Source: a virus | Taxonomy: Duplodnaviria; Caudoviricetes | Length of the DNA stretch: 59,161 bases | Reading direction: 5' to 3' (one strand) | IMG/VR virus record: IMGVR_UViG_3300033067_001135 | Span: 1 to 59,161 of that record | In this document: positions 17,598 to 41,063 of the stretch, piece by piece | How positions within the stretch are numbered: position 1 is the stretch's first letter | Layout: the number at the start of each line of letters is the position of its first letter | Translations under genes and position numbers: made by a program | Notes under the pieces: model-generated | Database searches by the model: none | Told to the model about the DNA's origin: nothing | What the model saw: only the letters and a program-made list of their open reading frames with translations

Positions 17598-18503
17598 ATG
17601 TCATCCGGTGTTTTCACCCTCCCGCCGCACTACCAGACGGCGTTCGACAACAACTGGAAGGAGATCATGGCGCAGCAGAAGCAGCATCGCCTCGCCGGTC
17701 TCTACCAGGTCGATTCCAACATTGCCGGGAACCAAAAGCGTTACGACCAGATCGGTTCCCAGTCCTACGCGATGCGCCAGAAGACGGCGCGCGCGCAGAA
17801 GACCGAACCGTCGGACATTCCGACGAGCTTCCGGTGGGTTCGCCCCCGCCCCTACGACAAGACCACCTGGATCGACGAGCACGATTCCATCATGCTCGGC
17901 TCGCTCCCCGACCCGCAATCGCCGACCGCGAAGAATCACGCCATCGCCGTGAATCGTCTCCGCGACATCGTGCTGATCAACGCGGCGCTCGGCACGAACT
18001 ACACGGGCGCGCAGGGCACGACCGCCACGGCGCTCCCGGCCGGCCAGCAGATCGCGGTCAACCTGGGCGGCGGTGCCAACACCGGCCTGACCCTGGCGAA
18101 GCTGATCGCGTCGAGCTACAACCTCGACGTGAACGATGTCGACGAGATGGACCGCGTGTTCGTCTACGCCGCCAAGCAGCTGAACAACCTGCTGGTGAAC
18201 GTCGACCAGGTGAATTCCGTCCTCTACAACGAGGTCCGCGCGCTCTTCAAGGGCCGTGTCGAGGAGTTCATGGGCTTCAAGTTCATCCGCACGCAGCTGC
18301 TGCCGATCACGGCGAACATCCGGTCCTGCTTCTGCTACCAGAAGGAGTTCCTCCAGATGGGCATCGGTGCGGACCTGAAGACGCACATCGACATCCTGCC
18401 TGACCAGTCGCACGCCGTGCAGGTCCGGTCGGTCATCCTTCTCGACGCGACCCGTCTGGAAGAGTCGGGCGTGGTCTCCATCGCCTGCGACGAGTCCGTC
18501 TAA
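17598..18503 (+). CDS. Major capsid protein
   Basis: 301 aa after the scaffold. QQKQHRL, RYDQIG, GLTLAKLI, QLNNLL, L.KG.VEEFMGFKFIRT, ATRLEESGVV: pattern of Bbp17-like podoviral capsids. Confidence 0.88.
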   Translation: MSSGVFTLPPHYQTAFDNNWKEIMAQQKQHRLAGLYQVDSNIAGNQKRYDQIGSQSYAMRQKTARAQKTEPSDIPTSFRWVRPRPYDKTTWIDEHDSIMLGSLPDPQSPTAKNHAIAVNRLRDIVLINAALGTNYTGAQGTTATALPAGQQIAVNLGGGANTGLTLAKLIASSYNLDVNDVDEMDRVFVYAAKQLNNLLVNVDQVNSVLYNEVRALFKGRVEEFMGFKFIRTQLLPITANIRSCFCYQKEFLQMGIGADLKTHIDILPDQSHAVQVRSVILLDATRLEESGVVSIACDESV

Positions 18504-19618: not shown

Positions 19619-20458
19619 ATGCCTACGAGCCTCGCCCAAATCGACATCGTGAACTCGGCGCTGTCGCGCATCGGTGTGAAGCCGATCCAGGACATCAACG
19701 CGCAGGACGACGTTCCGGCCGAACAGGCGAGGATCAACTGGCAGCTGGCGCTCGGGGCAGTCGGGCGCGCGCACGCGTGGAACTGTCTCACGAAGGCCGC
19801 GAAGCTCGAGGCGGTCGCGCAAGATCCCATTGTTGCGACTGATCCGGTGCCGGCGGCGACGCCGTGGGCTCCGGCTACGAATTACCTGGCGGGCGATTAT
19901 GTGACGTTCGGCAGTCCGGCCTACACCTACCAGGCGCTGATCGCGAACCTGTCCAGTGCGTCGTTCACGAACGACCTGACGAAAGGCTGGTGGTTTCAGA
20001 CGGACATCTTCAATCCGAACCCGTTCGGATCGTCCGTCGGCGCTGGGGCGCTTTACGCGTCTGGCTGGGCCTACAAATACAACCTGCCCGAAGACTGCCT
20101 GCTGGTCACGGCGCTGAATGACAGCGGCTGCGAGGGCAAGGAAGAGGATTTCGAGATCATGGGTGCGTCGCTCTACACGGACGAGTCCGAGGCGATCATC
20201 AAATACACCTGGGCCGATCCGGACACGACGCGCTACGACACGCTGTTCGTCGAATGCCTGGTCCTGAAGTTGGCGTCGATGATGTCGACCGTGCTTCGCC
20301 AGGATGACACGACGATCGAGCAGACGATGGAAGGCTTCTACATGAAGAAGCTGGCGTCGGCGCGGGCGCGGGATGCGGGCGAGAAGAAGCCGCGGCGCTA
20401 CGATCCGGTGGCGAACTCGCGGTTCGTGGGCAGCCGGTATCGCTCGACGAATTCCTGA
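19619..20458 (+). CDS. Tail tubular protein A / adaptor (T7 gp11-like) with CBM-like insert
   Basis: IDIVNSALSRIG, HAWNC, GWAYKYNLPEDCL, LYTD, FVECLVLKLAS. Confidence 0.82.
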   Translation: MPTSLAQIDIVNSALSRIGVKPIQDINAQDDVPAEQARINWQLALGAVGRAHAWNCLTKAAKLEAVAQDPIVATDPVPAATPWAPATNYLAGDYVTFGSPAYTYQALIANLSSASFTNDLTKGWWFQTDIFNPNPFGSSVGAGALYASGWAYKYNLPEDCLLVTALNDSGCEGKEEDFEIMGASLYTDESEAIIKYTWADPDTTRYDTLFVECLVLKLASMMSTVLRQDDTTIEQTMEGFYMKKLASARARDAGEKKPRRYDPVANSRFVGSRYRSTNS

Positions 20459-28600: not shown

Positions 28601-31600
28601 CCGACGCCGGGCCGGGAGCAGGCCGGCATGAGTGGCGAACTGCAAAACCTCTGGACGAGCCTGAAGTTCGACCAGCGGATGAAGCTATTCGCGGCGCACG
28701 ACAAATCGCTGGATGCGGTCGCCGAACTGCTGCGCGAGGATTACGGCTTCAGTTGGGTGCAGGGGCCTGACGACGTGGTGAAGCTGGCCGAAGACACGTT
28801 CCTGCACGGGAAGGAGATCACGAGTGATCGGTCGTTCTCGCTTCGCAAAACCCCGGCGATCAAAGGAACGGTTTCCTCGTTCGAAGACAGCGAGACCGGG
28901 AAGACGTTCACGACCGGAAAGCCGGTGGAATTCAATTTCGTCCGCAATCCGGTGAAAGCCCCGAACATGGGCAGTCGCTTCGGCCAGGACATCGAGCCGG
29001 CCGGCAAATACGTTTCCCCGATTTCAAAGGAGACGGCGGTTCTCGACGGCCTGGAATCGGGGACCATTGCCTTCAAAAGCCCGCTTGTCCTGGAATGGAG
29101 TGGCTACGGGTCGGATGGCTGGAAGGCGCGACTGTCCGCGGCCTACGGTGGGAAGACGGGCGCTGCGCTGTCGAAAGCCATCGTTGCATCCGGATATGAT
29201 GGGGTCGTCACGCAGTCGGAGGTCCGCGGGCAAAAGTATGCGTCCGAAGTGGTCGACCTGCGTGGATTCGTGGAAGGCGATCTTCCTGAAGTCACGATGG
29301 CCGTGCGCAAGGGCGACCAGACCGGCGACCTTTTTGACCAGGGCGACATGCCTTTCAACCTGTCCGGCGAGGCGGCGCAGGATCACACGGGCGCGATGGA
29401 CCGGAAGGCCGAAGCGGACCAGGCGAAGTCGAAGGCGACGGCCGCGCAGCAACTGATCGACGACCGGGCCGAATACGACCGCCTGCAGGCCGAACTGAAT
29501 AAGCTCGGGCCGGAGAAGTTCGGCACGCCGGAGTATAACGCGGTCTGGCAGAAGTCCGAAGACATCAAGAACCGGCATGGCGGGATGCCGCCGGGCGAGC
29601 AGGTCGGGGGATCGACCTACGCGGTCCGGCAGACGGAGCGTCCGGAATTCAAGAAGTGGTTCGGCGACTCGAAGGTTGTCGACGAAAAGGGCAATCCTTT
29701 GGTCGTCTATCACGGTTCGCCTGAAGCGACGTTTTCCGAGTTCCGCGGGAGCGAGGCCGAAAAGGGCGGTCTGTTCTTCACGGACAGTCCGGCCGTCGCG
29801 GAGGGCTATCACGCGAATCGCGGCGCGTGGATGTCGCCGGGCAAGGCGTCCGGGACGTTCCCGGTCTACCTGTCGTTGCAGAATCCGCTGGTGATCGACG
29901 CGCTCGGCAAGCGGCACGACAACATCCCGGTTCCGTGGCAGCCGTGGCAGCAGAAGGTCTTCGGCCGGCTGCCGAAGAACGCGGTGAACGTGCGCGATGC
30001 GCTGGTCTACGCGCGCGAGCACGGGCATGACGGGGTGATCGTGAAGAATGTTCACGACACGGCAGATCAGTATGAGCAAGGGAAGTCGACGGTCTATGGC
30101 GTCGTGAAGCCGACGCAGATCAAGTCGGCGATTGCGAACCGCGGCGTCTTTGATCCGAACAATCCGGACATTACTTATTCGCTGAAGACGACTTGGAACG
30201 AGGCGCACGGCGCGAGCGGGGACCGCGAAGGCGTCCTGGGCACGGTCAGCGCCAGCGGCAACGTCGTCGCGAAGCGTGGTGATCTCTACGAGGCCAGTCA
30301 TGCGTCGATGGGTCTCTACACGCGCAACGGCGTGCCGTGGCGTTACAGCAAAAAGACGCAGGCGGTCTACTGGTGGGGGAACGCTGATGAAGTGCAGCGC
30401 GAGAACGTCACGGCTCGTCTCATGAAGATGGGCTACGAGGTGAAGGCGCAGAAGATGATCAGCGACGCCAGCACGCCGGAGTTCCGGGAGTCGCACGAAA
30501 GTCGGCGGCCGTCCGCGCTGACGGTCGACGGGCATGGCGACGAGTGGATCGTCCGGGACGCCGACACGGGTTCCGGGGTGCATCCGGCTTTCAAGACCGA
30601 AGCGGAGGCGAAGGCATGGATGAACGAGAACTGGGATCGCCTGGTCGAGCCGTCGGAACCGGACACGTTTGCGCTGCGCCGGCAGACGGAGACGCCGGAG
30701 TTCAAAGCCTGGTTTGGGGATTCGAAGGTCGTCGACGAGGCCGGGCAACCGAAGGTTCTTTATCATGGGACCGGCGCGAAGGATTACGCGTGGGATGACA
30801 ACGGCCGGCGTGTTCCTGTGAATTTTCCGTTCACGAAGTTCGACAAGGACATGCCAGGGTCGAAGACGGACGAAGGGTATTTGGGTCGCGGGTTCTACTT
30901 TTCGGATCGGCCGGACATCGCCGGCTGGTATGGGAACATGACGACGAGCGAATCCGAGGCGGCGATGAAGCAGGCCGGCGATCAACCCTGGGGGGTGCAT
31001 CCGAAGATGAAGGGCAGCGCAATCGGTGCGTTCTTCCTTAGCCTGAGAAATCCCCTGGTGATAGAAGAGGCGGGGCAGAACGAATCTGCGTTCGACAAGC
31101 GGCGCGACATGCAGGCGGCGCTCGGTCTGGATCCCGGCGCGAACTGGGATGTGAATTATCTCACGTTCAAGTTGAAGGATGCCGGGTATGACGGGGTGAT
31201 TTATCGCTTCAAGAAAGGAGGCATGGAGGCGGTGGCTTTTGAGCCGGAGCAGATCAAGAGCGCGACGGGCAACCGCGGGACGTTCGACGCCAGCAATCCG
31301 GATATTACCTTCGCGCTGCGGCCGGCTGCGAACGGCGACCTGATCGCGGTTCACAACACGAACGCCGAAAAACTGAAACTGATCGACGAACTGGGCGGGC
31401 TGGCCGTCCCGTCGGTGGCGATCATCAAGCACGGCACGTCGGAATACGACTCGTTCGGCGACATCACGCTGATTGCGCCGAAGAGTCTGGTCGACCCGAA
31501 GAAGTCGGCGAAGGCCAAGGTGTTCAACACGGACATCTATTCGCCCCGCTTCCCGAACACGCGGTTCGATGTGAGCCTGCCGAACCTGCGGAAGGCGTGG

Positions 31601-34600
31601 AAGGATTTGGGCGACGCGAGCGAAGCGATTGGCGTCGGCAGTCTTTCGTCGGAAATCGACCATGACGAGGTTGAGCGCGAGGGGCTGGACGCTTTCGAGA
31701 AGGCGACGGCCGTGAAGTATGCTTTCCTGAAGGAACAGGGCCAGGTTCCGGACCTGAAGAACAAGCCGACGGAGACGCCGAAGGAGTGGGCCGCGGCGTG
31801 GGCCCGGGCTAAGACGAAATGGGAACTGGCGGACGATCCGGCTTTCCAGCAGGCGGCGCTCGAACACTTCAAAGAGGTTTACAAGGATCACCCCGATCTC
31901 TTGGCGGATATGGTCGACGAGGAAGGCAAACTGATGTCGAACCCGATCAATCGGTTCGCCGACGATGTGTTCACGACGAACAATCCGGAGGTCGACCGCT
32001 ACAGTTCGGGCCAGGCGATGAGTGATCAGATCAACAACCTCGGGCTGCGCGCCAAGTTCGAGTCCTGGGTGAAGTCGCGGTTTAGCGACGTGATCAAGCG
32101 CAAGGTGATTCGCGACTACAACGAGCGGACGGAGAAATGGGCGACGCGTCCCTACGATCTCGACACGGTGGTCAGCATCATGAAGCGGGGCCTTCAGGAT
32201 TCCGAAGGGTTCGACTACGGCGGCGCGTCCATCCGGGCGAACTACGCGCAGCAGTTTTCGTCCTTGGCTGAGATGAAGGATCTGGCGGGCTCGATCGTGT
32301 CCGACGAGGACATCAAGCGGCTGAAGGAACAGACGAACGACGAGTTCAACAGCCTGGCGACCGAACTCGCGCCATACTATCGGTTCGACACGAAACGCTT
32401 CGGGTATCTTGACCAGGTTGCGTCGGCGATGAAGCGGTTGGGCAAGTTCAACGGCGAAAAGCTGTGGGCTGAAGACTTCAAGCCGGTGCCGGCGGAACTG
32501 ATGGGCAAGGTCCGGGCGTTCCTCGCGATGCTCCGCGACGCGCCTACGGAGTATTTCGAGGCGAAGGTGCAGCGCGGCGTGAAGTTGTCCGAGATTGCCG
32601 GCGCGGTGATCCCCAGTGATTCGACGGAGGACGTGCGCGACATCCTCGCGCGCGCGGGCGTGCCGGTGGTCGAATACAAGCGTTCCGACCTGAAGGCGCG
32701 GGCGGCGGCCGTGGCGAATTTCGGCGACGAGTCGTGGGCGTTGGGGACCGGCAAGCGGGCGGAAGACGTGCAGGACGCGATGCGCGAGCGGAAGATCGGC
32801 ATCCGGGTGCAGGATTCGCCTGACTTCGCGCAGGAAGTGAAGGACATGGTGGGCCGGCCGGAATACGCCGTCCGCGGGATGACCGTGAACGAGCGCGAGG
32901 CGAAGAAGATCATCGCCGAACATGACGGCAACCTGGCGAAGCTCGTCCAGGTGCTCGCTGATCCGACGCAGACCTTTCATCCGGCGACGAAGGTCGCGCT
33001 GGCGTTCTTCGTGGCTGAGTCGGCGAACAAGGTGGGCGATTTCGCGACGGCCGCGGAAGTCGCCAAGCAGGCGGCGATGGAGGCGACGAGCCTGGGCCAG
33101 GGCGTCAACGAATTGAAGCGGTGGTCGATCTTCTCGCAGCCGGAGACGGCGCAGCAACTTCTCCAGGGCGAGATCGAAAAGGAGAACAACCGGCGCAAAG
33201 AGCGCGAGCCGGCGATCAAGGCCGTGCAGGACGTTTACGCCGAAGTGCAGCGGGAGGCGCGCAAACTCCTCCGGCAGTGGCTGGACGAGATCAACGGTGT
33301 CGCTGGCAAGGACGCCGCGGAGATCGAGCCGGTCGACGTATCTTCGCTTCCGGATGTGACGTTCGCGCTCCGGGCGGACGTTCGCGAGTCGGGCATCGTG
33401 CAGGTCGTGGCGAAGATGCTGAAGAAGAGCGGCGCGGAGGCGACGGAGAGGGCGCTGGTCGAGAAATACGGCCAGGCGGTCGAGGCGCACATCCCGGACA
33501 TCCTGATCGAAGCGCAGCGCAGCCTGATGAAGCGCGACGGCAAGGGTGAAAAGAAGTTCAAGACCCGGATCCCGGTCCTGTCCGACGAGCAGATCGAACA
33601 CACCCTGCGGTCGACGCGTGGGAAGGTCGAAGAGCAGGCGACGATGCCGACGGTCGAGGAACTGAAGGCGAAGGGCATGTCCGACGACCAGGTTGAAGAG
33701 ACGCTTCGCCAGTTCCGGAATCGCCAGGAATCGCAGGCCGACCTGATCCCGAAGGACGAGCCGGCCGGCGGCCGGCTGACGCCGGAGCAGATCGACGCTG
33801 CCATGCAGGCCGCTGCCAAGGGTGGCGCGCAGGGAGCGCAGACGTTCGCCGATATGCCGGAACTCTACGACCGGCTGTTCGAACACCTAATGCTGCGGAT
33901 CAAAGAGAAGGTCGAGGGCGAGCAAAACGTCCCGGTCCCGCGTGGCATCAAAGAGCAGATCGGCGAGATCCTGAATCGGCACGGCCTGAAGGCGACGGAG
34001 GACGACGTGAAGCGGATCATCGGCGCGCGCCAGTTGCTGCCGAACATGACGCCAGCGCAGGCCGAAGACCTGGCGAATTTCGCGCGCCGGATCGCCAGCA
34101 CGCCGCTCGGCTCGTTCGAGCGCGGGCAGCAGACGATGGAACTCTTCAGCTACGTTCACGACCAGCTTCAGCCCTACGATCTTGTCGATGTGGCGTTCGG
34201 GCTTTGGTATGCGAACGTCCTGTCGTCCCTGCTGACGACGGCTAGGAACGTCGCCGGCAACGCGTCGATGCTCTTCCTGGACCAGGCGGCTGAAACCCTC
34301 TTCCGCAATCCGGCCAGCTATTTCCCGTATATCGAGCAACTGGCGAAGGCGACGGGCGAAAGCATCGAGGCGTCGACCAGCCAAGGGAAGAACACGATGA
34401 AGACCGGCCAGGAAGGGCTGACGCGCAGCCTGTCGCTGGGCGACGAGCGCCGGCAGGGCGTCCTGGAGTCGAAAACCGCCCCGTTGCAGACGATGCGCTT
34501 GATCAGCCGGGTGGCGACGCGCTTCCTTTCGGTGCAGGATCTGTTCTTCGCGAACACGGCCTACGAGATGAAGGCGCGGCAACTGGCCTGGGATCAGGCA

Positions 34601-36154
34601 CGCAAAGAGGCCGGCACGGGCAAGATCAAGCCGGAGCAGGTCGAGGAACGCGTGTCGCGGTTACTCAACCAGGCGACGGACCAGATCCAGACGTTCACCG
34701 ATCGGGCCCGGGTGGAGTGGCAGAATCTGACGCCGGAGATCAGGGCGAACTACGACGAAGCCAACTGGCAGAAGCGTCGGGTTAAGGAATTGCAGATGTT
34801 CGAGCGCGACAAGCAGTTGGTCAGCCGGTCGCTGGATTTCGCGCAGAAGGTCACGCTCGACTACGAGCCGGAGGGCCTGATGGGGCTGCTGCTCGGCGGG
34901 TTGAGCCGCGTCTTCACGACGGCCGAAAACGCCGCGGCGCAGGTGCAGAACCCGAAGGTCAAGATGCTGACGAAGGCGGCGGCGAAGTATGGCCGGACCA
35001 GGGTGATCCCGTTCATGCGCGTGCCGGTCAACGTCTTCAACCGGGCGCTGGACTACGGGCCGGTCGGCTACGGCCGCGCGCTGATGGACGCCGCGGGCAT
35101 CCCGGTGATCCAAGGCACGAAGACGCGCGTCCGCACGGCCGACGAGCGGGCGGACCTGTTGAAGCGGGCGACGCTCGGCACGATGGCGCTGCTGCCGCTG
35201 GCGATCCTCGCCCGGCCGCCGTCGCCGGACGACGAACCGGAGGAATTTCCCTGGTTGCAGATTCACAGCGCCGGATCCGGGAACCCGAACACGAACATCG
35301 CGCTCAACGGGCCGAAGTATCGCCCCTACTCGATTGAGATCCGGGCCGGCGGCAACCAGACGTTCATCGACTACCGGATGTTTCCGCTCGCCCCCTACCT
35401 GGCAGCAATCGGGTCGCTGCACGACCGCACGCGTTACAAGAAGGCGATGGACGACAAGTCGGCGCTCGTGCAGGGCTGGATCATCGCGCAGGCGATGAAA
35501 GAGAGTTTCATGTCGAGTTCGCCGATCACGTCGCTGCGGGAGTTGAGCGAAGCCGCGGCCGAAAACCAGCCGATGTCGGAGCGGTCGGTGAACCGCACGC
35601 TGGCGCGCGGGTCGGTCGGCATCGCCGGCAACCTGATCCCGCTGTCCGGCCTGTGGCGGTCGCTCGACCAGCTTGCGGGCGGGGACCGGAACACGCGCGA
35701 CACGCTGCTGGCCGCGTCGATGGCGGAAATCCCGGTCGCGGGCCGGCTGAACGTGCCGTCGGTCGATGTCCTGGGCGACAACATGTCGTCGCGCGCGGGG
35801 ATCGGCTGGCTCGCCGACTGGTCGAAGCGAGAGACGCCGGAGTCGCGCATCTACGCAGCCTTTGCGGAGAAGGACGTGACGCCGACGGACATCTCGCGCT
35901 ACCAGTCGAAGATGACGCCGGAAGAGTATTACGCATTCGCGCAGGCGCGCGGGAAACTGCTGAAGGAGACCCTGCTGTCGCCGAACGAGGAAGGGCAGTT
36001 GGGCCTGGATCACCTGCTCGAACTGAGCGACAAGGCGAAGACGAAGGACGAGGATTCTCCCGCGAAGAAATACCTGATGCGGATCAGCCGCTCGGCGACG
36101 CGGCGGGCGCTTGTGCAGGTCGGCGCGAAGGTGCCGGCGGAAGTCGAGCCGTGA
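25682..36154 (+). CDS. Giant (3490 aa) ejection/polyvalent protein with several ADP-ribosyltransferase-like domains
   Basis: gp16 position. Two (E/T)xPEFKxWFGDSKVVDExGxPxVxYHG...G.(F/Y)F(T/S)D...LxNPLVI...G(H/Y)DGVI...QIKSA..NRG.FD domains, a third related domain at 28847-29290, a degenerate zincin-like segment, and a C-terminal PFMRVPVN...RPYSI region. Confidence 0.85.
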   Translation: MPYVPDDNEAALLLDSVEGEQDAGRKAVMVDLLGRYRDQKASAGLQPFQPDQASQRASRERLEGMFGGLDKMDAGLDPAQKSAFATAVDASTDKDEAKARMANQTWVLAQYPQLGGAVDADWTTVKHHVAKELFGNDAQAIPDTAFYAQIGGHIKKQKDERDMLADVLSKVQVEAAKGTGDWLAAWKKSATGISTNAGYQPTNWDRYRQAAKKVFDDTQQSIQTLRPAIAAGQEYYRLATSGPATLPGKKDDQGKVVPKSGDEMDADFQQVVTARQAFLGELMRLPAGQRDQALNLAIAGAADLAPKTMGAEGSAGGIEKTAVSLERAIGNFFPNAGRFLLQGVRAASETTLQARNAYYGEADTPQQSVYNEQNAMQRTDMSAAIDAGLVDAVDPIKSKSRLAQGVYDAMQSIPYMIAAGAQPEVGIPLTLAAMAEDNRRQFVANGVPPQEAATLALASAVPQVAIERLQAHMLFHGKLPGAEKWLTKAVGSKLQLATKLLAVGGLEALHENAEEALQDITPLAYQELGSILSKDVPDVNWKQELAQYAGQRVDTFFALLPMVLVGTGTASFKESAYGRQYLSSKNMLKAAGFTDAVAEEISQTAVKGDVEKAQAMVQSGWEDPEQRPKAQVEKDTAAAKADVEAVGKFNTEEQQRAFDELDAQMKASWNEQANPTGARAIKNEDGTWTVVDSKDQYVDQANSPEHAVDLVNEVNRADSASLTNVVDDMIDYFKQRGRGGEIVKTGDIRTVQDTVDEGQMAQDKAHQLVNLYVELGVLPKGTTTQEARIYGESAKVYNARQKVFEYVSRLHDGADPLVLVEEEAEGYFKQSLDNGLFSIEDVENWRAAVEGKPVQPKADKQMRAREATEWFSRYAQAYITGKTQADAPVPLTFRRWLDKVKKVFAEIFTLARDLIEKEKAGQLPDDFKKHLARAVGLDETFIEDRMRQEERQQAAKSASGNWRAAEALQEIKLPTPGREQAGMSGELQNLWTSLKFDQRMKLFAAHDKSLDAVAELLREDYGFSWVQGPDDVVKLAEDTFLHGKEITSDRSFSLRKTPAIKGTVSSFEDSETGKTFTTGKPVEFNFVRNPVKAPNMGSRFGQDIEPAGKYVSPISKETAVLDGLESGTIAFKSPLVLEWSGYGSDGWKARLSAAYGGKTGAALSKAIVASGYDGVVTQSEVRGQKYASEVVDLRGFVEGDLPEVTMAVRKGDQTGDLFDQGDMPFNLSGEAAQDHTGAMDRKAEADQAKSKATAAQQLIDDRAEYDRLQAELNKLGPEKFGTPEYNAVWQKSEDIKNRHGGMPPGEQVGGSTYAVRQTERPEFKKWFGDSKVVDEKGNPLVVYHGSPEATFSEFRGSEAEKGGLFFTDSPAVAEGYHANRGAWMSPGKASGTFPVYLSLQNPLVIDALGKRHDNIPVPWQPWQQKVFGRLPKNAVNVRDALVYAREHGHDGVIVKNVHDTADQYEQGKSTVYGVVKPTQIKSAIANRGVFDPNNPDITYSLKTTWNEAHGASGDREGVLGTVSASGNVVAKRGDLYEASHASMGLYTRNGVPWRYSKKTQAVYWWGNADEVQRENVTARLMKMGYEVKAQKMISDASTPEFRESHESRRPSALTVDGHGDEWIVRDADTGSGVHPAFKTEAEAKAWMNENWDRLVEPSEPDTFALRRQTETPEFKAWFGDSKVVDEAGQPKVLYHGTGAKDYAWDDNGRRVPVNFPFTKFDKDMPGSKTDEGYLGRGFYFSDRPDIAGWYGNMTTSESEAAMKQAGDQPWGVHPKMKGSAIGAFFLSLRNPLVIEEAGQNESAFDKRRDMQAALGLDPGANWDVNYLTFKLKDAGYDGVIYRFKKGGMEAVAFEPEQIKSATGNRGTFDASNPDITFALRPAANGDLIAVHNTNAEKLKLIDELGGLAVPSVAIIKHGTSEYDSFGDITLIAPKSLVDPKKSAKAKVFNTDIYSPRFPNTRFDVSLPNLRKAWKDLGDASEAIGVGSLSSEIDHDEVEREGLDAFEKATAVKYAFLKEQGQVPDLKNKPTETPKEWAAAWARAKTKWELADDPAFQQAALEHFKEVYKDHPDLLADMVDEEGKLMSNPINRFADDVFTTNNPEVDRYSSGQAMSDQINNLGLRAKFESWVKSRFSDVIKRKVIRDYNERTEKWATRPYDLDTVVSIMKRGLQDSEGFDYGGASIRANYAQQFSSLAEMKDLAGSIVSDEDIKRLKEQTNDEFNSLATELAPYYRFDTKRFGYLDQVASAMKRLGKFNGEKLWAEDFKPVPAELMGKVRAFLAMLRDAPTEYFEAKVQRGVKLSEIAGAVIPSDSTEDVRDILARAGVPVVEYKRSDLKARAAAVANFGDESWALGTGKRAEDVQDAMRERKIGIRVQDSPDFAQEVKDMVGRPEYAVRGMTVNEREAKKIIAEHDGNLAKLVQVLADPTQTFHPATKVALAFFVAESANKVGDFATAAEVAKQAAMEATSLGQGVNELKRWSIFSQPETAQQLLQGEIEKENNRRKEREPAIKAVQDVYAEVQREARKLLRQWLDEINGVAGKDAAEIEPVDVSSLPDVTFALRADVRESGIVQVVAKMLKKSGAEATERALVEKYGQAVEAHIPDILIEAQRSLMKRDGKGEKKFKTRIPVLSDEQIEHTLRSTRGKVEEQATMPTVEELKAKGMSDDQVEETLRQFRNRQESQADLIPKDEPAGGRLTPEQIDAAMQAAAKGGAQGAQTFADMPELYDRLFEHLMLRIKEKVEGEQNVPVPRGIKEQIGEILNRHGLKATEDDVKRIIGARQLLPNMTPAQAEDLANFARRIASTPLGSFERGQQTMELFSYVHDQLQPYDLVDVAFGLWYANVLSSLLTTARNVAGNASMLFLDQAAETLFRNPASYFPYIEQLAKATGESIEASTSQGKNTMKTGQEGLTRSLSLGDERRQGVLESKTAPLQTMRLISRVATRFLSVQDLFFANTAYEMKARQLAWDQARKEAGTGKIKPEQVEERVSRLLNQATDQIQTFTDRARVEWQNLTPEIRANYDEANWQKRRVKELQMFERDKQLVSRSLDFAQKVTLDYEPEGLMGLLLGGLSRVFTTAENAAAQVQNPKVKMLTKAAAKYGRTRVIPFMRVPVNVFNRALDYGPVGYGRALMDAAGIPVIQGTKTRVRTADERADLLKRATLGTMALLPLAILARPPSPDDEPEEFPWLQIHSAGSGNPNTNIALNGPKYRPYSIEIRAGGNQTFIDYRMFPLAPYLAAIGSLHDRTRYKKAMDDKSALVQGWIIAQAMKESFMSSSPITSLRELSEAAAENQPMSERSVNRTLARGSVGIAGNLIPLSGLWRSLDQLAGGDRNTRDTLLAASMAEIPVAGRLNVPSVDVLGDNMSSRAGIGWLADWSKRETPESRIYAAFAEKDVTPTDISRYQSKMTPEEYYAFAQARGKLLKETLLSPNEEGQLGLDHLLELSDKAKTKDEDSPAKKYLMRISRSATRRALVQVGAKVPAEVEP

Positions 36155-36328: not shown

Positions 36329-38116
36329 ATGAAAGTCTTCCGCCTTTTCACGCTCGTTCTCGCCTTGGCGCTGGCCATCCCGGTCCTGGCGAACATCTCA
36401 AGCCAGACCAATCGCGCCGGGCCCTACACCCTGTCGGTGCTGCCGGCGACCGTCTCCGTCGTTTTCCCGTTTCAGCAGGCGTCCGACATCATGGTCCTGA
36501 ACACGGGCCAGAGCGGCACGAGCATCGACCCGCCGACCGTCCTGACGCTGAACTCCGACTACACGGTCACGGGCGGCGGCTACAATCCGACGACGAACAT
36601 GCAGTCTGGCAACGTCGTGGTGAACACGGGCGGCGCGCACAATGTCCAGGTGAACGACCGGATCGTGATCATCCGAAACGTGCCGTTCAACCAGTTGACT
36701 TCGTTCACGTCCGGGGTGCTGACGGCCGCGGCGATCGAGAAGGCGCTGGATAAGACGGCGACGATCTCGCAGCAGTTGGCGGAAGCCGGGTCGCGAACGC
36801 TCCGCTTTCAGCCTGGCGAACTGATCGACGGCACGCTGAGTCGCACGGCGCGCAAGAGCAAGGTGCTCGGGTTCGACAGCAACGGGAACATCTCTTTCTA
36901 CGCGTTTCAGGCCGGCACGATTCTTCCCCAGTCGATTCAGGGAACGGCGAATCAGGTCCTGGTGAACGGTTCCTTCGGGACGCCGGTCACGGGGGCGGCG
37001 ACGTTGACGACGCCGCAGGACATCGGGACGACGAGTTCGGTGCAGTTCGGCAAGATGGGCATCAACACGGCCCCGGTCGGGAACACGGATTTGCTGGTCA
37101 ATCGCGTGCTGCCAGGTGCGACCGCGCAGGCGTCGGTCATCGTGTCGGGGTCGCTCGCACCCCCGCCGGCAACCGATCTGCATCCGAACGCGTTTCGCGA
37201 TGTGACGAATTTCGTTCCGACGATGGTGGCGGACGCCTACTGCTCGTTCGACGCGCAGTCGAGCATGGGCGGCACGGTCAACCTGAACCACTATCGCGGG
37301 TATCAGGCGCGCTTCGGCTACTACGGCAGCGGCACGATTGGCGAGATGTCGGGCTACATGACGGCGAATTTCGGGCCGAACGGTCCGGGCAATGTCACGT
37401 TCCTCCGCAGCTTCTACGTCTCGCAGCCGACGATCTCCGGCGGCGCAACCGTAGGCCAGTTTGACGGCATCTACATGGATCAGTTGTCGAATCCGACCGG
37501 CAACGTGAACGCGATCTACATCGCCGGCAACAACCGCATTTTCATGGCCGGCGGTCAGATCGTGACTTCCGACCTGCTGACGCCGATCAACACGAACAAC
37601 CGCGTCGACGTGACGTTCGACCAGACGACGCAACACGGCATCGGCATCCGGAACAAGAACGCGACCGCGACCGGATACATGATCCAGTTCTACAACAACA
37701 ACCCCACGCAGCAGGGGTCGATCCAGCAGGCGAATTCGACGACTGTGGCGTTCAACACCACGTCGGATGCCAGGCTGAAGACGAATGTCCGGCCGATGCG
37801 GGACAGCGGCAAGATCATCGACGCGATGCAGCCGCGGCTGTTCGACTGGCGATGGGGCGGGAAGGACTATCACGGGTTTGTCGCGCAGGAATTGTTCAAG
37901 GTCTATCCCGAAGCCGTGTCCAAGGGCGACGCAGGCGACGAGATCAAGGAACCCTGGTCGGTCGACTACTCGAAGCTGACGCCGGTCCTGGTCTCTGAAG
38001 TGCAAGACCTTCGTCGCCGGACGCGCAACCTCGAGCTGATCGTCGGGTTCATGGCTTTCTTTGTCGTCACGCAGGCCGGCATTCTCGCTTTCCGTTTCAA
38101 CCGCAAATCCTCATGA
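36329..38116 (+). CDS. Tail fibre/spike with N-terminal signal peptide, T7 gp17-like attachment domain, S74 chaperone and C-terminal TM helix
   Basis: MKVFRLFTLVLALALAIPVLA|NISSQTNR...FPF...LNSDYTVTG...IIRNVP.NQ...EKALDK...QQL. TSDARLKTNV...GFVAQEL...YPEAV...VDYSKLTPVL. Ends LIVGFMAFFVVTQAGILAF-RFNRK. Confidence 0.88.
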   Translation: MKVFRLFTLVLALALAIPVLANISSQTNRAGPYTLSVLPATVSVVFPFQQASDIMVLNTGQSGTSIDPPTVLTLNSDYTVTGGGYNPTTNMQSGNVVVNTGGAHNVQVNDRIVIIRNVPFNQLTSFTSGVLTAAAIEKALDKTATISQQLAEAGSRTLRFQPGELIDGTLSRTARKSKVLGFDSNGNISFYAFQAGTILPQSIQGTANQVLVNGSFGTPVTGAATLTTPQDIGTTSSVQFGKMGINTAPVGNTDLLVNRVLPGATAQASVIVSGSLAPPPATDLHPNAFRDVTNFVPTMVADAYCSFDAQSSMGGTVNLNHYRGYQARFGYYGSGTIGEMSGYMTANFGPNGPGNVTFLRSFYVSQPTISGGATVGQFDGIYMDQLSNPTGNVNAIYIAGNNRIFMAGGQIVTSDLLTPINTNNRVDVTFDQTTQHGIGIRNKNATATGYMIQFYNNNPTQQGSIQQANSTTVAFNTTSDARLKTNVRPMRDSGKIIDAMQPRLFDWRWGGKDYHGFVAQELFKVYPEAVSKGDAGDEIKEPWSVDYSKLTPVLVSEVQDLRRRTRNLELIVGFMAFFVVTQAGILAFRFNRKSS

Positions 38117-38490
38117 AAAACACGCTTCGTTTCATTTCCGCCCTGGTCCTGATGCTGGGGTTGTCGGCGCTGCCGGCGCACGCGATCATCAAGCAGGTCA
38201 CGTCCGTCTCCGGCACGGTCTCGACGATCCTGACACCCGGGCCCAACGTCCGCACGGTCATCATCCAGAACAACGGTTCCGGCAATGTCCGGCTGACGAT
38301 CGATAACGGCTCGATCACGAGTCCGGCCGGCACGAACCCGACGGCGACGACCGGTTACAAGCTGGTGGCTGGCGCGCAGCTGATCATCACCTACCCGGGC
38401 GACAAGCGTCCGCCGATCATTCGCGCGATCCTGGAGACGGCGACGACGACCACGCTCGACATCTGCACGGACGACACGGGTTCGACCTAA
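38113..38490 (+). CDS. Beta-rich structural-type protein with signal peptide
   Basis: MKNTLRFISALVLMLGLSALPAHA|..., RTVIIQNNGSGNVRL, TATTGYKLVAG. Confidence 0.75.
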   Translation: MKNTLRFISALVLMLGLSALPAHAIIKQVTSVSGTVSTILTPGPNVRTVIIQNNGSGNVRLTIDNGSITSPAGTNPTATTGYKLVAGAQLIITYPGDKRPPIIRAILETATTTTLDICTDDTGST

Positions 38491-38496
38491 CGCGCG

Positions 38497-40653
38497 ATGA
38501 AGGCTTTTCAGAGGGCGGTGATTTGGCTGGCGCTGGCGTTGCTTGCGCCTGGTCTGTTCGGCCAGACGGCCAAGGGAGGGTCGTGGGTGCAGGGTGGACT
38601 GGTGACGCCGGCCGGTGTGTCGAGCGCGAGCAAGATCCTGAAGCCTTACATGCCGTTCTTGGGCGGCGGATCGTTCGAGGCCGGAAGCGTCACGTTCCTG
38701 GATCCGCGAAACCTGGGCAACATGGCGGCGTGGTATGATTCGAGCGACGCGAATTCGCTGATCTACAACTCGTCGAATCAGGTTGCGCTATGGTCGGACA
38801 AGTCGGGCAACAGTGGCACGGGGACGAGTCAGAGCACGGGGCTTTATTTGACGGGAGCAGCGACGGATTACGCGAGTGCGCCGAACGCAGCCGCTTTGCA
38901 GATCACGGGCGACATTGATCTCCGGATTTATGGGGCATCGAATTCGTGGGTATCCGCGAATCTTCAGATGTTGATTTCGAAAAATACGTCGGGCGCTGGC
39001 CAGTGGGCGTATGACTGCTATGTAAACACATCTGGAAATCTGGTGTTTCGGTATAGTCCAGACGGGACAACCCTGCGGACGGCGACAAGTTCGGTTGCTT
39101 TGTCCACGCCCAACAGGACCGCGACATGGATGCGCTGCACATACGCGACGGCGAGCGGAAACGTCATTTTCTATACGAGCGCAGACGGCTCGAACTGGAC
39201 CCAACTAGGCACGACTCAAGTCGTAACATCGGGAACGATTTTTGCCGGCACGAATTCGCTGTCTATCGGTGCGAACAGTGGTGGCGGACTCAATCTTTTC
39301 AGTGGGGCAATTTACCGCGCGCAAATCTACAACGGGATCAATGGCACGCTGGCGTTCGATGCGAATTTCGTCGGCCAGCGCACCAACGCCACGACCTTCA
39401 CCGAGTCCAGCAGCAATGCCGCCACGGTCACGATCAACGGCACGGCGCTGCTCGGGTGGGTGGATGCGGCGAACGTGCTGTGCTTAGATGGAAATGCGGG
39501 AAACTATGCATCAAGCCCGAGCGCAGCCCCGGTAAAAATCACTGGGAGCATAGACCTTAGGGCTGACGCTGCATTGGTTAATTGGGCAACTGGTTCAAAT
39601 CAGGGGCTTATTTCAAAGGTAGATGGAACAAGTTCATGCTCGTATGACATGTTCATTTCCGCCGCTGGACGGGTTGTTTTTAGATATACTCCTGACGGAA
39701 CGGTTGCCTCCCTAAGAACGGCAACTTCTTCTGTAAATCCGAGCGTGTCTGCTCTTGGCCGTCTCTCCGTAAGGGCAACGTATAATTCAGCAACCGGAGA
39801 TGTTACATTTTATACGGCCAGTGATTTTGCTTCATGGGTTCAGCTCGGAACCGTTCAGACGCTAACGGCGGCGGCTATTTTTGATGGAAACAACGCCATA
39901 GCTATTGGTGCTGGTTCTGGCGGCGCAGCCCCTAGGACTGCCGGTATTTTTTACCGCGCCCAAATCTACAACGGTATCGCCGGAACGCTGGCCTTTGACG
40001 CCAACTTCGCCACCGCCGCCAAGCTCGCCACCAGCTTCACCGAATCCTCCTCCAACGCCGCCACTGTCACGATCAACACCAGCGGAGCGACTGGGGCGCG
40101 AATCTCGGGAGCACGGGACTTGTATCAGGGGACGGCGGCTAACCAGCCCATCCTGACCATCGCAGCGGGGGGCAACTACGTGACGTTTGACGGCTCCAAC
40201 GACTATCTGAAGGCGGCGGCGTTCTCACTGAGCCAGCCGGAGACGGTTTACTTTGTCGGAAGCCAGATTTCTAACACGGTTTCAGATTCACTCATCGATG
40301 GGCAGGCGGCCACCTCAACCTTGCGTATAAGCCAGACGGGAACGGGGAGCGAAATCGTTGCGACGGCGGGCACCTCGCTTGGTCCTATTTCTACCGGCCT
40401 AAATACCCCCTCTGTTGTAACCGCAGTATTCAACTCAACCTCGTCCTCAATCAGAAACAATAGGGCGGCGGCTACGGTTGGAAATGCCGGAACGGGAACG
40501 CCCAACGGCGTCGTTCTTGGCGCACAGACCACCCCCGGCAACTACGCCAACATCACCGCCTCTGAAATCGCGATTTATTCGGTCGCGCATGATGCAAGCA
40601 CGCAGGACAGCATGGCGATTTACGAGAATATCAAGTGGGTGCTCGGCTTCTGA
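38497..40653 (+). CDS. LamG/concanavalin-like adhesin (tail-associated) with signal peptide
   Basis: MKAFQRAVIWLALALLAPGLFG|..., AAWYDSSD...WSDKSGN, two internal ~200-aa repeats (ITG.IDLR...W.QLGT...IYRAQIYNGI), ...FDGSNDYL...EIAIYS. Confidence 0.78.
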   Translation: MKAFQRAVIWLALALLAPGLFGQTAKGGSWVQGGLVTPAGVSSASKILKPYMPFLGGGSFEAGSVTFLDPRNLGNMAAWYDSSDANSLIYNSSNQVALWSDKSGNSGTGTSQSTGLYLTGAATDYASAPNAAALQITGDIDLRIYGASNSWVSANLQMLISKNTSGAGQWAYDCYVNTSGNLVFRYSPDGTTLRTATSSVALSTPNRTATWMRCTYATASGNVIFYTSADGSNWTQLGTTQVVTSGTIFAGTNSLSIGANSGGGLNLFSGAIYRAQIYNGINGTLAFDANFVGQRTNATTFTESSSNAATVTINGTALLGWVDAANVLCLDGNAGNYASSPSAAPVKITGSIDLRADAALVNWATGSNQGLISKVDGTSSCSYDMFISAAGRVVFRYTPDGTVASLRTATSSVNPSVSALGRLSVRATYNSATGDVTFYTASDFASWVQLGTVQTLTAAAIFDGNNAIAIGAGSGGAAPRTAGIFYRAQIYNGIAGTLAFDANFATAAKLATSFTESSSNAATVTINTSGATGARISGARDLYQGTAANQPILTIAAGGNYVTFDGSNDYLKAAAFSLSQPETVYFVGSQISNTVSDSLIDGQAATSTLRISQTGTGSEIVATAGTSLGPISTGLNTPSVVTAVFNSTSSSIRNNRAAATVGNAGTGTPNGVVLGAQTTPGNYANITASEIAIYSVAHDASTQDSMAIYENIKWVLGF

Positions 40654-41063
40654 TGATCCTGACCGCAACAGAGCTTCGCGAACGGGTTCCTGGCGCAGTC
40701 TGTGCCGATCAGGATTATGCCGTGCCGACATCAGCCTGGTTGCTGAAGGAGTTCTATCCGTGGTTCTGGCAGATGCGGACGGCGATGGGCCTGCGCGTCT
40801 ACTCGCGGAAGAACGACTGCGACAACTACGCCAGGGCCGCGGCGCAGGCGGCGGAAGACTGCCATTCGCTGACCGCCGGCGGTCCCGTGGCCGAAGGGCT
40901 GTCCGTCGGGGAATTCTTCTATCGCAAGGACAGCGGCGAGGGTCACGCGATTTGCGTGGCGATTGTCGACGACGGCCGCCGCATGTTTTTCGAACCGCAG
41001 TCCGGGGCTGAACTGCAACTGAGCAACCAGGAGATCGCATCATGCTATTTCGCACGCTTCTGA
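40653..41063 (+). CDS. Papain/transglutaminase-like cysteine peptidase
   Basis: NDCDNYA...GHAICV...FFEPQ gives a Cys-His-Glu triad. Confidence 0.7.
   Translation: MILTATELRERVPGAVCADQDYAVPTSAWLLKEFYPWFWQMRTAMGLRVYSRKNDCDNYARAAAQAAEDCHSLTAGGPVAEGLSVGEFFYRKDSGEGHAICVAIVDDGRRMFFEPQSGAELQLSNQEIASCYFARF

What the first reader, a model, noticed from the sequence alone, without database searches (positions are those of the whole stretch)
36329..40653. Tail fibre and two partner proteins all carry Sec signal peptides: exported receptor-binding apparatus
Seen: three consecutive genes begin with basic-hydrophobic-cleavage signal peptides (MKVFRLFTLVLALALAIPVLA, MKNTLRFISALVLMLGLSALPAHA, MKAFQRAVIWLALALLAPGLFG). 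In the first, the mature N-terminus (NISSQTNR...) begins where a T7 gp17-like virion-attachment domain normally begins, and there is no Met at that point. Capsid, adaptor and nozzle have no such peptides. Known: tailed-phage fibres normally fold and attach in the cytoplasm. Inference: fibres are exported and join virions only in the periplasm or at lysis, or act there as receptor-masking/exclusion factors. This would be a compartmentalised assembly pathway I do not know to be described.
Basis: partly seen in the sequence, partly recalled or inferred. Interest (0 to 1): 0.85.

Follow-up and report, generated by a model that had tools for sequence, protein, structure and literature searches.

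The report
Phage tail fibre module carrying export signals
In this uncultured short-tailed phage, the only tail fibre and the two genes after it start with ordinary bacterial secretion signals, so the host-recognition parts are probably sent outside the cytoplasm where the rest of the particle is built.

Summary
Genes at 36329-38116, 38113-38490 and 38497-40653 each start with a basic, then hydrophobic, then small-residue leader. By my own rule, only 4 of 60 window ORFs have such a start.

The leaders look functional, on four grounds:
- Fibre relatives have either 0-1 or 16-33 extra N-terminal residues, nothing between, and the junction is the predicted cleavage site.
- The small second protein shows the same split: 55 with a leader, 11 without, 1 truncated, of 67.
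- Leader state matches between fibre and second gene in all six loci holding a whole fibre and that gene.
- A C-terminal membrane anchor after the self-cleaving S74 chaperone occurs only in leader-bearing proteins, 10 of 10 (three rows reclassified by eye).

The fibre's N-domain model resembles tail-bound fibre domains of T7-like phages, and it is the genome's only such gene.

Export itself, and how exported fibres would reach particles, remain untested. No trained predictor was available and the host is unknown.

This scan has noted the same phenomenon on other DNA. I found no published description.

The parts
36329..38116 (+). g1, tail fibre precursor (595 aa)
   Evidence: ORF. It lies directly after the internal-virion and giant protein genes, the position of the T7 fibre gene. 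It is the only match to itself in the 98%-complete record.
36329..36391 (+). g1 leader, residues 1-21, predicted cleavage after VLA
   Evidence: In the 44 aligned relatives the matching extension is 16-33 residues in 20 and 0-1 residues in 24.
36392..36955 (+). g1 N-terminal tail-attachment-type domain (residues 22-209 modelled)
   Evidence: AlphaFold2 model with mean pLDDT 80.6. The listed Foldseek PDB matches down to rank 16 are all fibre-proximal or tail-complex chains of podophages: LME-1, Carin-1, PhiM1, P-SCSP1u, T7 gp17 N-terminus 7boz, Kp9 and HRP29. E-values reach 1.3e-5 and TM by query is 0.30-0.47.
37763..37918 (+). S74 intramolecular chaperone core (Pfam stretch, residues 479-530), starting at the SDARLK motif
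   Evidence: PF13884, 40.3 bits against a cut-off of 22. The motif lies at residue 479.
38036..38098 (+). C-terminal hydrophobic segment (residues 570-590), followed by the basic tail NRKSS (to 38113)
   Evidence: Such a segment occurs in 10 proteins of 176 examined, all of them leader-bearing (three rows corrected by eye, see report).
38113..38490 (+). g2, small jellyroll protein (125 aa); leader is residues 1-24 (38113-38184)
   Evidence: Model mean pLDDT 89.1, one helix (the leader) followed by eight strands. Of 67 family members, 55 have a leader, 11 are leaderless and 1 is truncated.
38497..40653 (+). g3, protein with two LamG/ConA-like repeats (718 aa); leader is residues 1-22 (38497-38562)
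   Evidence: phrog_5313, E 5.4e-37, function unknown. The family has 6523 representatives at E <= 0.001. Among the best 150, 9 carry a leader. Atlas look-alikes carry Laminin_G_3.

Best explanation
g1, g2 and g3 carry working Sec-type signal peptides, so the fibre module leaves the cytoplasm.

Proposed pathway for g1:
1. The leader takes the chain through SecYEG.
2. Signal peptidase cuts after residue 21. This leaves the same mature N-terminus that leaderless relatives make directly.
3. The C-terminal hydrophobic segment with its basic tail stops transfer, so the precursor sits in the inner membrane with its body in the periplasm.
4. The S74 chaperone drives trimer folding there and then cuts itself off at Ser479. 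That releases a soluble fibre of about 457 residues per chain and leaves the chaperone in the membrane.
5. g2 (a small jellyroll protein) and g3 (lectin-like) fold in the same compartment.
6. The particles are built in the cytoplasm. Fibres would therefore dock on the tail only once the holin has opened the inner membrane, or afterwards in the lysate.

Shown here: the leaders, their conservation, the exact junction, the matching state in neighbouring genes, the anchor-with-leader rule, and the tail-attachment fold of the N-domain.

Inferred: translocation, both cleavages, the topology, and above all the late docking step.
For: 1. Bimodal extension. In 44 aligned relatives of the N-domain, the residues before the window's residue 22 number 0-1 in 24 and 16-33 in 20, with none between. 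All 20 long extensions start with M then K or R. All have a hydrophobic core, A or G at -1, and a small or aliphatic residue at -3.
2. Same split in g2, an unrelated family. Leader-bearing forms end ...A|IIKQVT and leaderless forms start MIKQVT: 55, 11 and 1 truncated, of 67.
3. Neighbours agree. Fibre and g2 are both leader-bearing in the window, L002, L039 and L040, and both leaderless in L050 and L051. No locus pairs a leader-bearing fibre with a leaderless g2. L006 and L008 (GC 0.41 and 0.39) also have three consecutive leader-bearing fibre-module genes of other families.
4. Anchor only with leader. After correction by eye, 10 of 10 proteins with a C-terminal anchor carry a leader, against 38 of 166 without an anchor (Fisher p about 1e-6, rows not independent). 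The 10 have at least three unrelated N-terminal regions. In a further IMG/VR sample of 58 distinct complete S74 ORFs, 57 had neither feature and 1 had a leader only.
5. Leader state changes at least 3 times on well-supported branches of the N-domain tree, and 8 times by parsimony (7 once P0016 is counted as leader-bearing). The leader is therefore gained or lost as a unit.
6. g1 is the only fibre with an attachment domain in a 98%-complete genome, and that domain stays conserved in leader-bearing lines.
7. No upstream tail or internal protein is flagged in the window or in L002, L003, L005, L006, L007, L008, L009, L039 or L040.
Against: - No trained signal-peptide predictor and no experiment were available. 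My rule misjudged at least four rows: it missed P0013 and P0016, wrongly counted P0065 as anchored, and in its first form falsely flagged L007.
- No route is known by which an exported fibre reaches a cytoplasmic particle.
- In L007 the attachment-domain protein is leaderless while the three genes after it carry leaders. That fits late docking only awkwardly.
- The residues just before the g1 anchor are also basic (RRRTR), so the positive-inside rule does not fix the topology on its own.
- g1 and g2 each have a single cysteine, and there is no enrichment of Bacteroidota-type glycosylation motifs. Neither of these marks of periplasmic maturation, which earlier notes relied on, is present here.
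- The g3 cleavage site is not canonical, and 141 of its 150 best relatives are leaderless.
- Later checks of the same claim on other DNA priced the virion-export reading at about 10 in 100.
Confidence: 0.5

Rival explanations
1. The three proteins are exported but act in the envelope, not (or not only) as virion parts. They could mask or destroy the receptor from inside, giving superinfection exclusion or keeping progeny from sticking to debris. They could also loosen surface glycans before release. Virions would then carry few or none of these fibres.
For: - Relatives with the same N-domain carry pectate-lyase or beta-helix bodies (P0006, P0029, P0071).
- g3 is lectin-like.
- Bacteria do export tailspike-fold enzymes, for example WceF through the Tat pathway (PMC7949094, passages read).
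- In L007 the attachment protein has no leader while its neighbours do.
Against: - g1 keeps a conserved tail-attachment-type N-domain. Cleavage would leave exactly the N-terminus of leaderless fibres. That precision is pointless for a free enzyme.
- No second fibre gene exists in the 98%-complete genome.
- No internal start codon could yield a leaderless copy near the junction.
Confidence: 0.2
2. The hydrophobic N-termini do not lead to translocation of the body. Either they are uncleaved tethers that hold fibres at the inner membrane until particles pick them up, or export fails late in infection. In both cases fibres fold and attach in the cytoplasm as usual.
For: - This needs no new assembly route.
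- Leader gain and loss is frequent, as expected if the leader matters little for where assembly occurs.
- Basic residues flank the g1 C-terminal segment on both sides.
Against: - A basic N-terminus followed by a hydrophobic core normally places the downstream chain outside.
- All 20 leaders keep A or G at -1, which matters only if they are cleaved.
- The basic C-terminal tails (RRRR, RKTNRR, IKRK and the like) fit a stop-transfer anchor and would fit a tail-anchor poorly.
- Leader state matches between neighbouring genes.
- A neutral 16-33 residue leader would not stay canonical across such diverged sequences.
Confidence: 0.2
3. Artefact: translation starts downstream, or the three leaders are chance hydrophobic stretches.
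For: - No Shine-Dalgarno motif lies before any of the three starts.
- In-frame TTG, GTG or ATG codons exist inside the leaders.
Against: - Shine-Dalgarno motifs are rare throughout this genome (11 of 60 ORFs), so their absence here says nothing.
- Leader GC3 equals gene GC3.
- Leaders of different sequence but the same design recur in 20 of 44 fibre relatives and 55 of 67 g2 relatives.
- No relative has an extension of intermediate length.
- The chance of three adjacent hits among 60 ORFs is about 0.0017.
Confidence: 0.03

Closest known systems
T7 gp17-type tail fibres of short-tailed phages (solved in tail complexes of T7, Carin-1, PhiM1, LME-1, Kp9); nearest annotated relative is the Ralstonia phage RpY1 putative tail fiber
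   Same: Gene position after the internal virion proteins. Fold of the N-terminal domain. 37% identity over residues 23-162 to the RpY1 and DU_RP_II fibres.
   Different: Those fibres have no leader: the RpY1 match starts at residue 3 of its gene. They are taken to assemble in the cytoplasm (recalled). There is no Pfam PF03906 sequence match here.
Endosialidase-type tailspikes and fibres with a C-terminal S74 intramolecular chaperone (Pfam PF13884)
   Same: PF13884 above its cut-off, and an intact SDARLK start motif.
   Different: Here the chaperone is followed by a membrane segment and a basic tail, and the precursor has a signal peptide. Of 58 distinct complete IMG/VR S74 proteins sampled, none had the segment.
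MYRF, the eukaryotic membrane-bound transcription factor released by a phage-type S74/ICA domain
   Same: A trimerising, self-cleaving S74/ICA domain sits just before a transmembrane anchor, so cleavage frees the N-terminal trimer from the membrane (PMC3742443 and PMC3742440: titles and the opening lines of the abstracts shown in the search listing).
   Different: In MYRF the released part is cytosolic (recalled from those papers). Here the signal peptide implies that the released part is outside the cytoplasm. There is no DNA-binding domain.
Filamentous phage pIII (receptor-binding protein of Ff phages)
   Same: A receptor-binding protein made with a Sec signal peptide and a C-terminal membrane anchor, which waits in the inner membrane until it joins the particle (recalled; not checked in a paper here).
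   Different: Ff particles are assembled at and extruded through the membrane. This is a tailed phage with a cytoplasmic head and tail pathway and a lysis cassette.
Sec-exported and SAR phage endolysins; signal-peptide genes in Porphyromonas phages (Matrishin et al. 2023)
   Same: Phage late proteins that use the host's general secretion pathway (PMC7143992, opening lines of the abstract in the search listing; PMC8951688, passages; PMC10367356, passages).
   Different: Those are lysis enzymes, spanins, capsid proteins or unknowns. None of the passages mentions tail fibres.
Pantoea stewartii WceF
   Same: A trimeric tailspike-fold protein exported to the envelope through an N-terminal signal (PMC7949094, passages).
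   Different: It is a bacterial enzyme, uses the Tat pathway, and has no tail-attachment domain.

Membership tests
Sec (signal peptidase I type) signal peptide | Basic n-region, hydrophobic h-region of about 10-15 residues, and a c-region with small residues at -3 and -1 | tested here: met
   Read from the sequence and scored with my own rule. g1 has VLA|N and g2 has AHA|I. g3 has LFG|Q, where L at -3 is marginal. There is no twin-arginine and no lipobox in any of the three (by eye).
Sec (signal peptidase I type) signal peptide | Call by a trained predictor (SignalP, DeepTMHMM) | not testable with these tools
Sec (signal peptidase I type) signal peptide | Translocation and cleavage in a cell | not testable with these tools
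   This needs reporter fusions, fractionation or N-terminal mass spectrometry.
T7 gp17-type fibre N-terminal tail-attachment domain (Pfam PF03906) | Sequence match to PF03906 | tested here: not met
   No hit at E <= 0.01 for the whole protein or at E <= 5 for residues 22-209. A profile of 22 relatives searched against PDB sequences found no fibre.
T7 gp17-type fibre N-terminal tail-attachment domain (Pfam PF03906) | Fold like that of fibre domains seen bound to adaptor and nozzle in solved tails | tested here: met
   The listed Foldseek PDB hits down to rank 16 are all such chains, including 7boz, 7ey9 and 8dsp of T7. TM scores are modest: 0.30-0.47 by query and 0.17-0.66 by target.
T7 gp17-type fibre N-terminal tail-attachment domain (Pfam PF03906) | Gene placed after the internal virion proteins of a T7-like structural module | tested here: met
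   The gene order is portal, capsid, tubular A, tubular B, internal proteins, the 3490-aa protein, then g1.
Peptidase S74 intramolecular chaperone (PF13884) | Pfam match above the gathering score | tested here: met
   40.3 bits against a cut-off of 22, residues 479-530.
Peptidase S74 intramolecular chaperone (PF13884) | Serine and lysine of the cleavage motif at the start of the domain (the roles of these residues are recalled) | tested here: met
   SDARLK at residues 479-484. S479 and K484 are invariant in the 10-sequence alignment A4.
Peptidase S74 intramolecular chaperone (PF13884) | Self-cleavage after trimer folding | not testable with these tools
   This needs expression of the protein.
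MYRF-like membrane-anchored S74/ICA release | S74/ICA domain directly followed by a transmembrane segment | tested here: met
   Residues 570-590 are hydrophobic and are followed by NRKSS. Nine further examples were found.
MYRF-like membrane-anchored S74/ICA release | Released part faces the cytosol | tested here: not met
   All 10 anchored proteins carry an N-terminal leader, which predicts the opposite side. The topology is inferred, not measured.
LamG / concanavalin A-like lectin domain (g3) | Pfam Laminin_G_3 (PF13385) match | tested here: not met
   No Pfam hit even at E <= 5. Support comes only from Atlas look-alikes (score 0.96, a lead only) and from phrog_5313, of unknown function.

The most novel reading that the evidence does not exclude
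One family of podophage fibres has two interchangeable assembly routes, switched by gaining or losing a signal peptide. This happened at least three times on the N-domain tree, and the neighbouring g2 gene switches with it.

In the leader-bearing route, the receptor-binding apparatus matures in the periplasm. The fibre precursor is a type I membrane protein. Its S74 chaperone works like MYRF in mirror image and releases only correctly folded trimers from the inner membrane. Fibres dock on finished, fibreless particles in the short interval after the holin opens the membrane, or in the lysate.

A possible benefit, which is pure speculation, is keeping the fibre away from cytoplasmic defences that sense or tag tail fibres. 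Another is pre-loading the envelope with receptor-blocking protein.
Probability: 0.4. Interest if true: 0.85.

Novelty: new variant of a known kind. Interest (0 to 1): 0.7.

Why it matters
Textbook assembly of tailed phages takes place entirely in the cytoplasm. If these fibres really mature outside it, several things follow:
- Fibre attachment becomes a separate, compartmentalised last step.
- A phage uses Sec, signal peptidase and a membrane-anchored self-cleaving chaperone to build a virion part.
- The timing of lysis becomes part of morphogenesis.

There are practical consequences too. Fibres and depolymerases of such phages would need periplasmic expression to fold. Annotation pipelines that treat a signal peptide as evidence against a structural role would mislabel them.

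The leaderless and leader-bearing pairs found here give matched natural controls for a direct test.

Tried and rejected
Start-codon artefact: rejected.

Tat or lipoprotein signals on g1-g3: none, by eye.

Marks of periplasmic maturation that earlier notes relied on:
- Paired cysteines: not present. g1 has 1 Cys, g2 has 1 and g3 has 4.
- Bacteroidota-type D-S/T-aliphatic glycosylation motifs: 0 in g1, 0 in g2 and 2 in g3, no higher than in other genes.

Host identification failed:
- No tRNA genes.
- The nearest cultured phages are HTVC010P-like pelagiphages and Ralstonia phage RpY1, at about 30-33% identity for capsid and tubular B.
- The single genome-contig scan returned 5 metagenome-assembled contigs labelled with different phyla.
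- I infer a two-membrane host only from the lipobox proteins in the lysis cassette.
- The low Shine-Dalgarno count (11 of 60) and a Gln at +1 of g3 made me consider Bacteroidota. However, g1 and the g2 family do not follow that Q rule, so I dropped the idea.

Searches that gave nothing useful:
- A sequence profile of the N-domain against PDB gave only a chance 23-residue match.
- Pfam found nothing for the N-domain, g2 or g3.
- The g2 fold search gave only generic small jellyrolls (Ena pilins, cupins, many unnamed phage proteins) at TM 0.34-0.61. g2's role stays unknown.
- The promoter and terminator scan was at the level of shuffled sequence.

Wider sampling of fibre and g2 pairs was limited. 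IMG/VR held 2 g2 loci and the metagenome scan 17, most of them short. Four more pairs are suggested only by equal 'longest contig' lengths: three where both have a leader and one where neither does. I did not verify these.

Complex prediction was not used. I could not say which part of g1 would touch g2, because g2 also sits next to capsid-like genes in L037 and L042. That g2 and g3 are physical partners of the fibre therefore rests on adjacency and matching leader state only.

Sequencing-run tools were not used. Supplements of papers were closed; Supplementary Data 4 of PMC10367356, which lists its signal-peptide genes, may bear on whether tail genes are among them.

Corrections to my rule's output, made by eye before the anchor count:
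- P0013 was counted as leader-bearing (long n-region).
- P0016 was counted as leader-bearing (hydrophobicity 2.2, below my cut-off).
- P0065 was dropped as a false anchor (no S74 domain, no basic tail).
- One search used 127 and 184 where 128 and 185 are correct. The p-values barely change.

Full report
WHAT THE WINDOW IS

The window is a whole IMG/VR virus record of 59,161 bp, linear, with completeness estimated at 98%. Almost all genes lie on the + strand.

PHROG matches give a T7-like structural module:
- portal at 10376-12103 (phrog_332, E 1.4e-101)
- major capsid protein at 17598-18503 (E 2.9e-50)
- tail tubular A at 19619-20458
- tail tubular B at 20458-23145 (E 4.1e-142)
- internal proteins, then a 3490-aa protein at 25682-36154

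After a 174-nt gap come the three genes of the finding. A run of small membrane and lipobox proteins follows and looks like the lysis cassette.

The nearest cultured phages are HTVC010P-like pelagiphages and Ralstonia phage RpY1, at only about 30-33% identity for capsid and tubular B. The host is unknown.

THE OBSERVATION

The three ORFs are real. Each ATG is the first start codon after the previous in-frame stop. The leaders have the same third-position GC as the gene bodies.

Each leader has lysine or arginine near the start, an uncharged hydrophobic core, and a small residue at -1.

With a rule I wrote myself (not a trained predictor), 4 of 60 GC3-supported ORFs qualify. These are the three genes plus one lipobox protein at 41529. 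No head, tail-core or internal protein qualifies. Three adjacent hits among 60 ORFs has a chance of about 0.0017.

Shine-Dalgarno motifs are absent before all three genes. They are rare in the whole genome (11 of 60), so this says nothing about the starts.

WHAT THE THREE PROTEINS ARE

g1
- The C-terminus holds a Peptidase_S74 intramolecular chaperone (PF13884, 40.3 bits against a cut-off of 22, residues 479-530). It starts at an intact SDARLK motif.
- After the chaperone's last helix come a 21-residue hydrophobic segment (570-590) and a short basic tail.
- The N-terminal 190 residues have no Pfam match. A profile of relatives finds no solved fibre by sequence.
- An AlphaFold2 model of residues 22-209 has mean pLDDT 80.6. 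All its listed PDB matches down to rank 16 are fibre-proximal chains in solved podophage tails, including the T7 gp17 N-terminus. E-values reach 1.3e-5 and TM scores are modest.
- tblastn matches to the annotated fibres of Ralstonia phages RpY1 and DU_RP_II begin at query residue 23, with 37% identity. In RpY1 that is residue 3 of the gene.
- g1 therefore has the position, the fold and the only copy of this phage's tail-attached fibre. Its mature part starts where leaderless fibres start.

g2
- It models confidently (pLDDT 89.1) as one helix, which is the leader, followed by an eight-stranded jellyroll.
- Fold matches are generic.

g3
- It belongs to a very large, mostly viral family: 6523 representatives at E <= 0.001.
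- It has two lectin-like repeats (phrog_5313 of unknown function).

ARE THE LEADERS FUNCTIONAL? FOUR TESTS

1. Junction. I aligned 44 relatives to the window's residues 22-209 and counted the residues before residue 22.
   - 24 relatives have 0 or 1.
   - 20 relatives have 16 to 33.
   - None lies between.
   - All 20 long extensions start with M then K or R. All have a hydrophobic core, A or G at -1, and a small or aliphatic residue at -3.
   - Leaderless forms read M-S-I-S-S-Q where leader-bearing forms read A|N-I-S-S-Q. After cleavage, the two kinds have N-termini of the same length.

2. A second family. Of 67 g2 relatives, 55 carry a leader ending ...A|I-I-K-Q-V-T. Eleven start M-I-K-Q-V-T, and one has a truncated leader.

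3. Neighbours.
   - In loci holding both genes, fibre and g2 are both leader-bearing in the window, L002, L039 and L040.
   - Both are leaderless in L050 and L051, which are two related contigs.
   - I found no locus with a leader-bearing fibre next to a leaderless g2.
   - L039 has a third leader-bearing gene that also ends in a membrane segment and a basic tail.
   - L006 and L008 have only 41% and 39% GC, so they probably have other hosts. They also show three consecutive leader-bearing fibre-module genes of other families.
   - No upstream tail or internal protein is flagged in any of these loci.

4. Anchor.
   - Among the 176 proteins from the whole-protein and S74-region searches, my rule found a C-terminal hydrophobic segment in 11.
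   - One (P0065) is a false call: it has no S74 domain and no basic tail.
   - The other 10 all carry a leader: 9 by rule, and P0013 by eye.
   - Among the 166 without an anchor, 38 carry a leader: 37 by rule, and P0016 by eye.
   - Fisher p is about 1e-6, but the rows are related, so this number overstates the evidence.
   - More telling, the 10 include at least three unrelated N-terminal regions: the fibre N-domain, the P0025 type, and the lipobox-like P0073.
   - A further IMG/VR sample of 80 S74 loci gave 58 distinct complete ORFs. Of these, 57 had neither feature and 1 had a leader only.

A strongly basic C-terminal tail is what a stop-transfer anchor has, and it would be a poor fit for a tail-anchor. 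Together with the leader, this predicts a type I membrane precursor with its body outside the cytoplasm.

EVOLUTION

On a tree of the N-domain, with the leader columns left out, leader state changes 8 times by parsimony. The count is 7 once P0016 is treated as leader-bearing. At least 3 changes fall on well-supported branches. None of 500 label shuffles needed as few changes.

The leader is thus a unit that has been gained or lost repeatedly, and both states give viable phages.

MECHANISM I THINK MOST LIKELY

1. g1 is exported by Sec and cut after residue 21.
2. It is held in the inner membrane by its C-terminal anchor.
3. It trimerises under the S74 chaperone.
4. It cuts itself at Ser479, and the fibre trimer is released into the periplasm.
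5. g2 and g3 fold in the same compartment.
6. Head and tail core have no leaders and are cytoplasmic. Fibres could therefore dock only once the holin has opened the inner membrane, or afterwards in the lysate.

The candidate endolysin at 40635-41063 has no leader. It would then need holes large enough for it to cross the inner membrane, which fits this timing. The link between a leaderless endolysin and large holes is my own recalled knowledge, and this point is a weak inference.

Every step after 'has a leader' is inferred. I put about 0.75 on export and about 0.5 on the whole pathway.

EVIDENCE AGAINST, AND RIVALS

- No trained predictor was available, and my rule made at least four errors.
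- No route is known for exported fibres to reach particles.
- In L007 the attachment-domain protein (248 aa) is leaderless, while the three genes after it, one of them g2-like, carry leaders. There, the tail-bound piece and its presumed distal parts would be in different compartments.
- Basic residues also precede the g1 anchor.
- g1 and g2 have one cysteine each, and no host-type glycosylation motifs are enriched.
- g3's site is marginal, and only 9 of its 150 best relatives have leaders.
- g2-like genes with leaders also sit directly after capsid-like genes in L037 and L042. g2 may therefore not be a fibre partner at all.

Rival readings:
- Exported envelope factors that are not virion parts: 0.2.
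- Membrane tethers or failed export, with ordinary cytoplasmic assembly: 0.2.
- Artefact: 0.03.

COMPARISON WITH WHAT IS KNOWN

- By fold and gene position, g1 works like a T7-type fibre. By sequence it is not a member of PF03906.
- It is a member of the S74 chaperone family.
- Having an S74 domain next to a membrane anchor parallels MYRF (titles and the opening lines of the abstracts in the search listing), but with the released part predicted on the other side of the membrane.
- A receptor-binding protein with a Sec leader and a C-terminal anchor is the design of filamentous-phage pIII (recalled).
- Phage endolysins that use Sec are known (passages; opening lines of an abstract in the listing).
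- Porphyromonas phages have signal peptides on capsid, spanin and unknown genes, with no mention of tail parts in the passages I read (PMC10367356).
- A bacterial tailspike-fold enzyme, WceF, is exported by the Tat pathway (passages).
- Five full-text searches returned no paper describing a tailed-phage fibre with a secretion signal. I judged this from titles, the opening lines of abstracts, and term passages in seven papers. Subscription journals are not covered.

EARLIER NOTES OF THIS SCAN

The same phenomenon has been noted and followed up on several other genomes. Later checks there kept the observation but priced the virion-export reading at about 9-10 in 100.

What this window adds:
- the anchor-only-with-leader rule
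- the strictly bimodal extension length
- the matching fibre and g2 leader state

It does not add the paired cysteines that some of those notes relied on.

VERDICT

The leaders are very probably functional. The compartmentalised assembly route is plausible but unproven. I class this as a new variant of a known kind, with interest 0.7.

Noticed in passing
L007:10010-13272: In a relative with 60% GC, the fibre attachment domain is a separate leaderless 248-aa protein. The three genes after it (392 aa, a g2-like gene, and 344 aa) all carry leaders. The tail-bound adaptor and its presumed distal parts would therefore be made in different compartments.
   Followed up: partly
L039:6357-7295: The gene after g2 in this close relative (312 aa) has both a leader and a C-terminal hydrophobic segment with a basic tail. 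This is the same bracket as g1, but on an unrelated protein without a recognised S74 domain.
   Followed up: no
L037:5752-6363 and L042:634-1068: Leader-bearing g2-like genes sit directly after a capsid-like gene, not after a fibre. The small jellyroll protein is therefore not tied to fibres in all phages.
   Followed up: partly
window 5135-5341: A small ORF reads as a signal peptide followed by about 40 residues if it starts at its internal Met (codon 10). It lies between terminase-like genes.
   Followed up: no
window, all gene starts: Shine-Dalgarno-like motifs occur before only 11 of 60 ORFs. Many leaders are A/C-rich instead, which suggests a host that starts translation without this motif.
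   Followed up: partly
proteins P0124, P0128, P0133, P0137, P0148 and others: Many S74-domain proteins on long, apparently cellular contigs (one of 4.7 Mb) carry leaders ending in AQ or AQA followed by Q or T. Exported S74 proteins therefore seem common outside phage particles.
   Followed up: no
window 40635-41063: The gene in the endolysin position has only weak papain-fold hits (Gln_amidase, E 0.015, below the cut-off) and no leader. No standard lysozyme or amidase was seen among the genes I scanned.
   Followed up: no
window 25682-36154: This is a single 3490-aa ORF in the position of the T7 ejection proteins. It matches only two PHROGs of unknown function. L040 ends a similar giant gene just before its leader-bearing fibre.
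   Followed up: no
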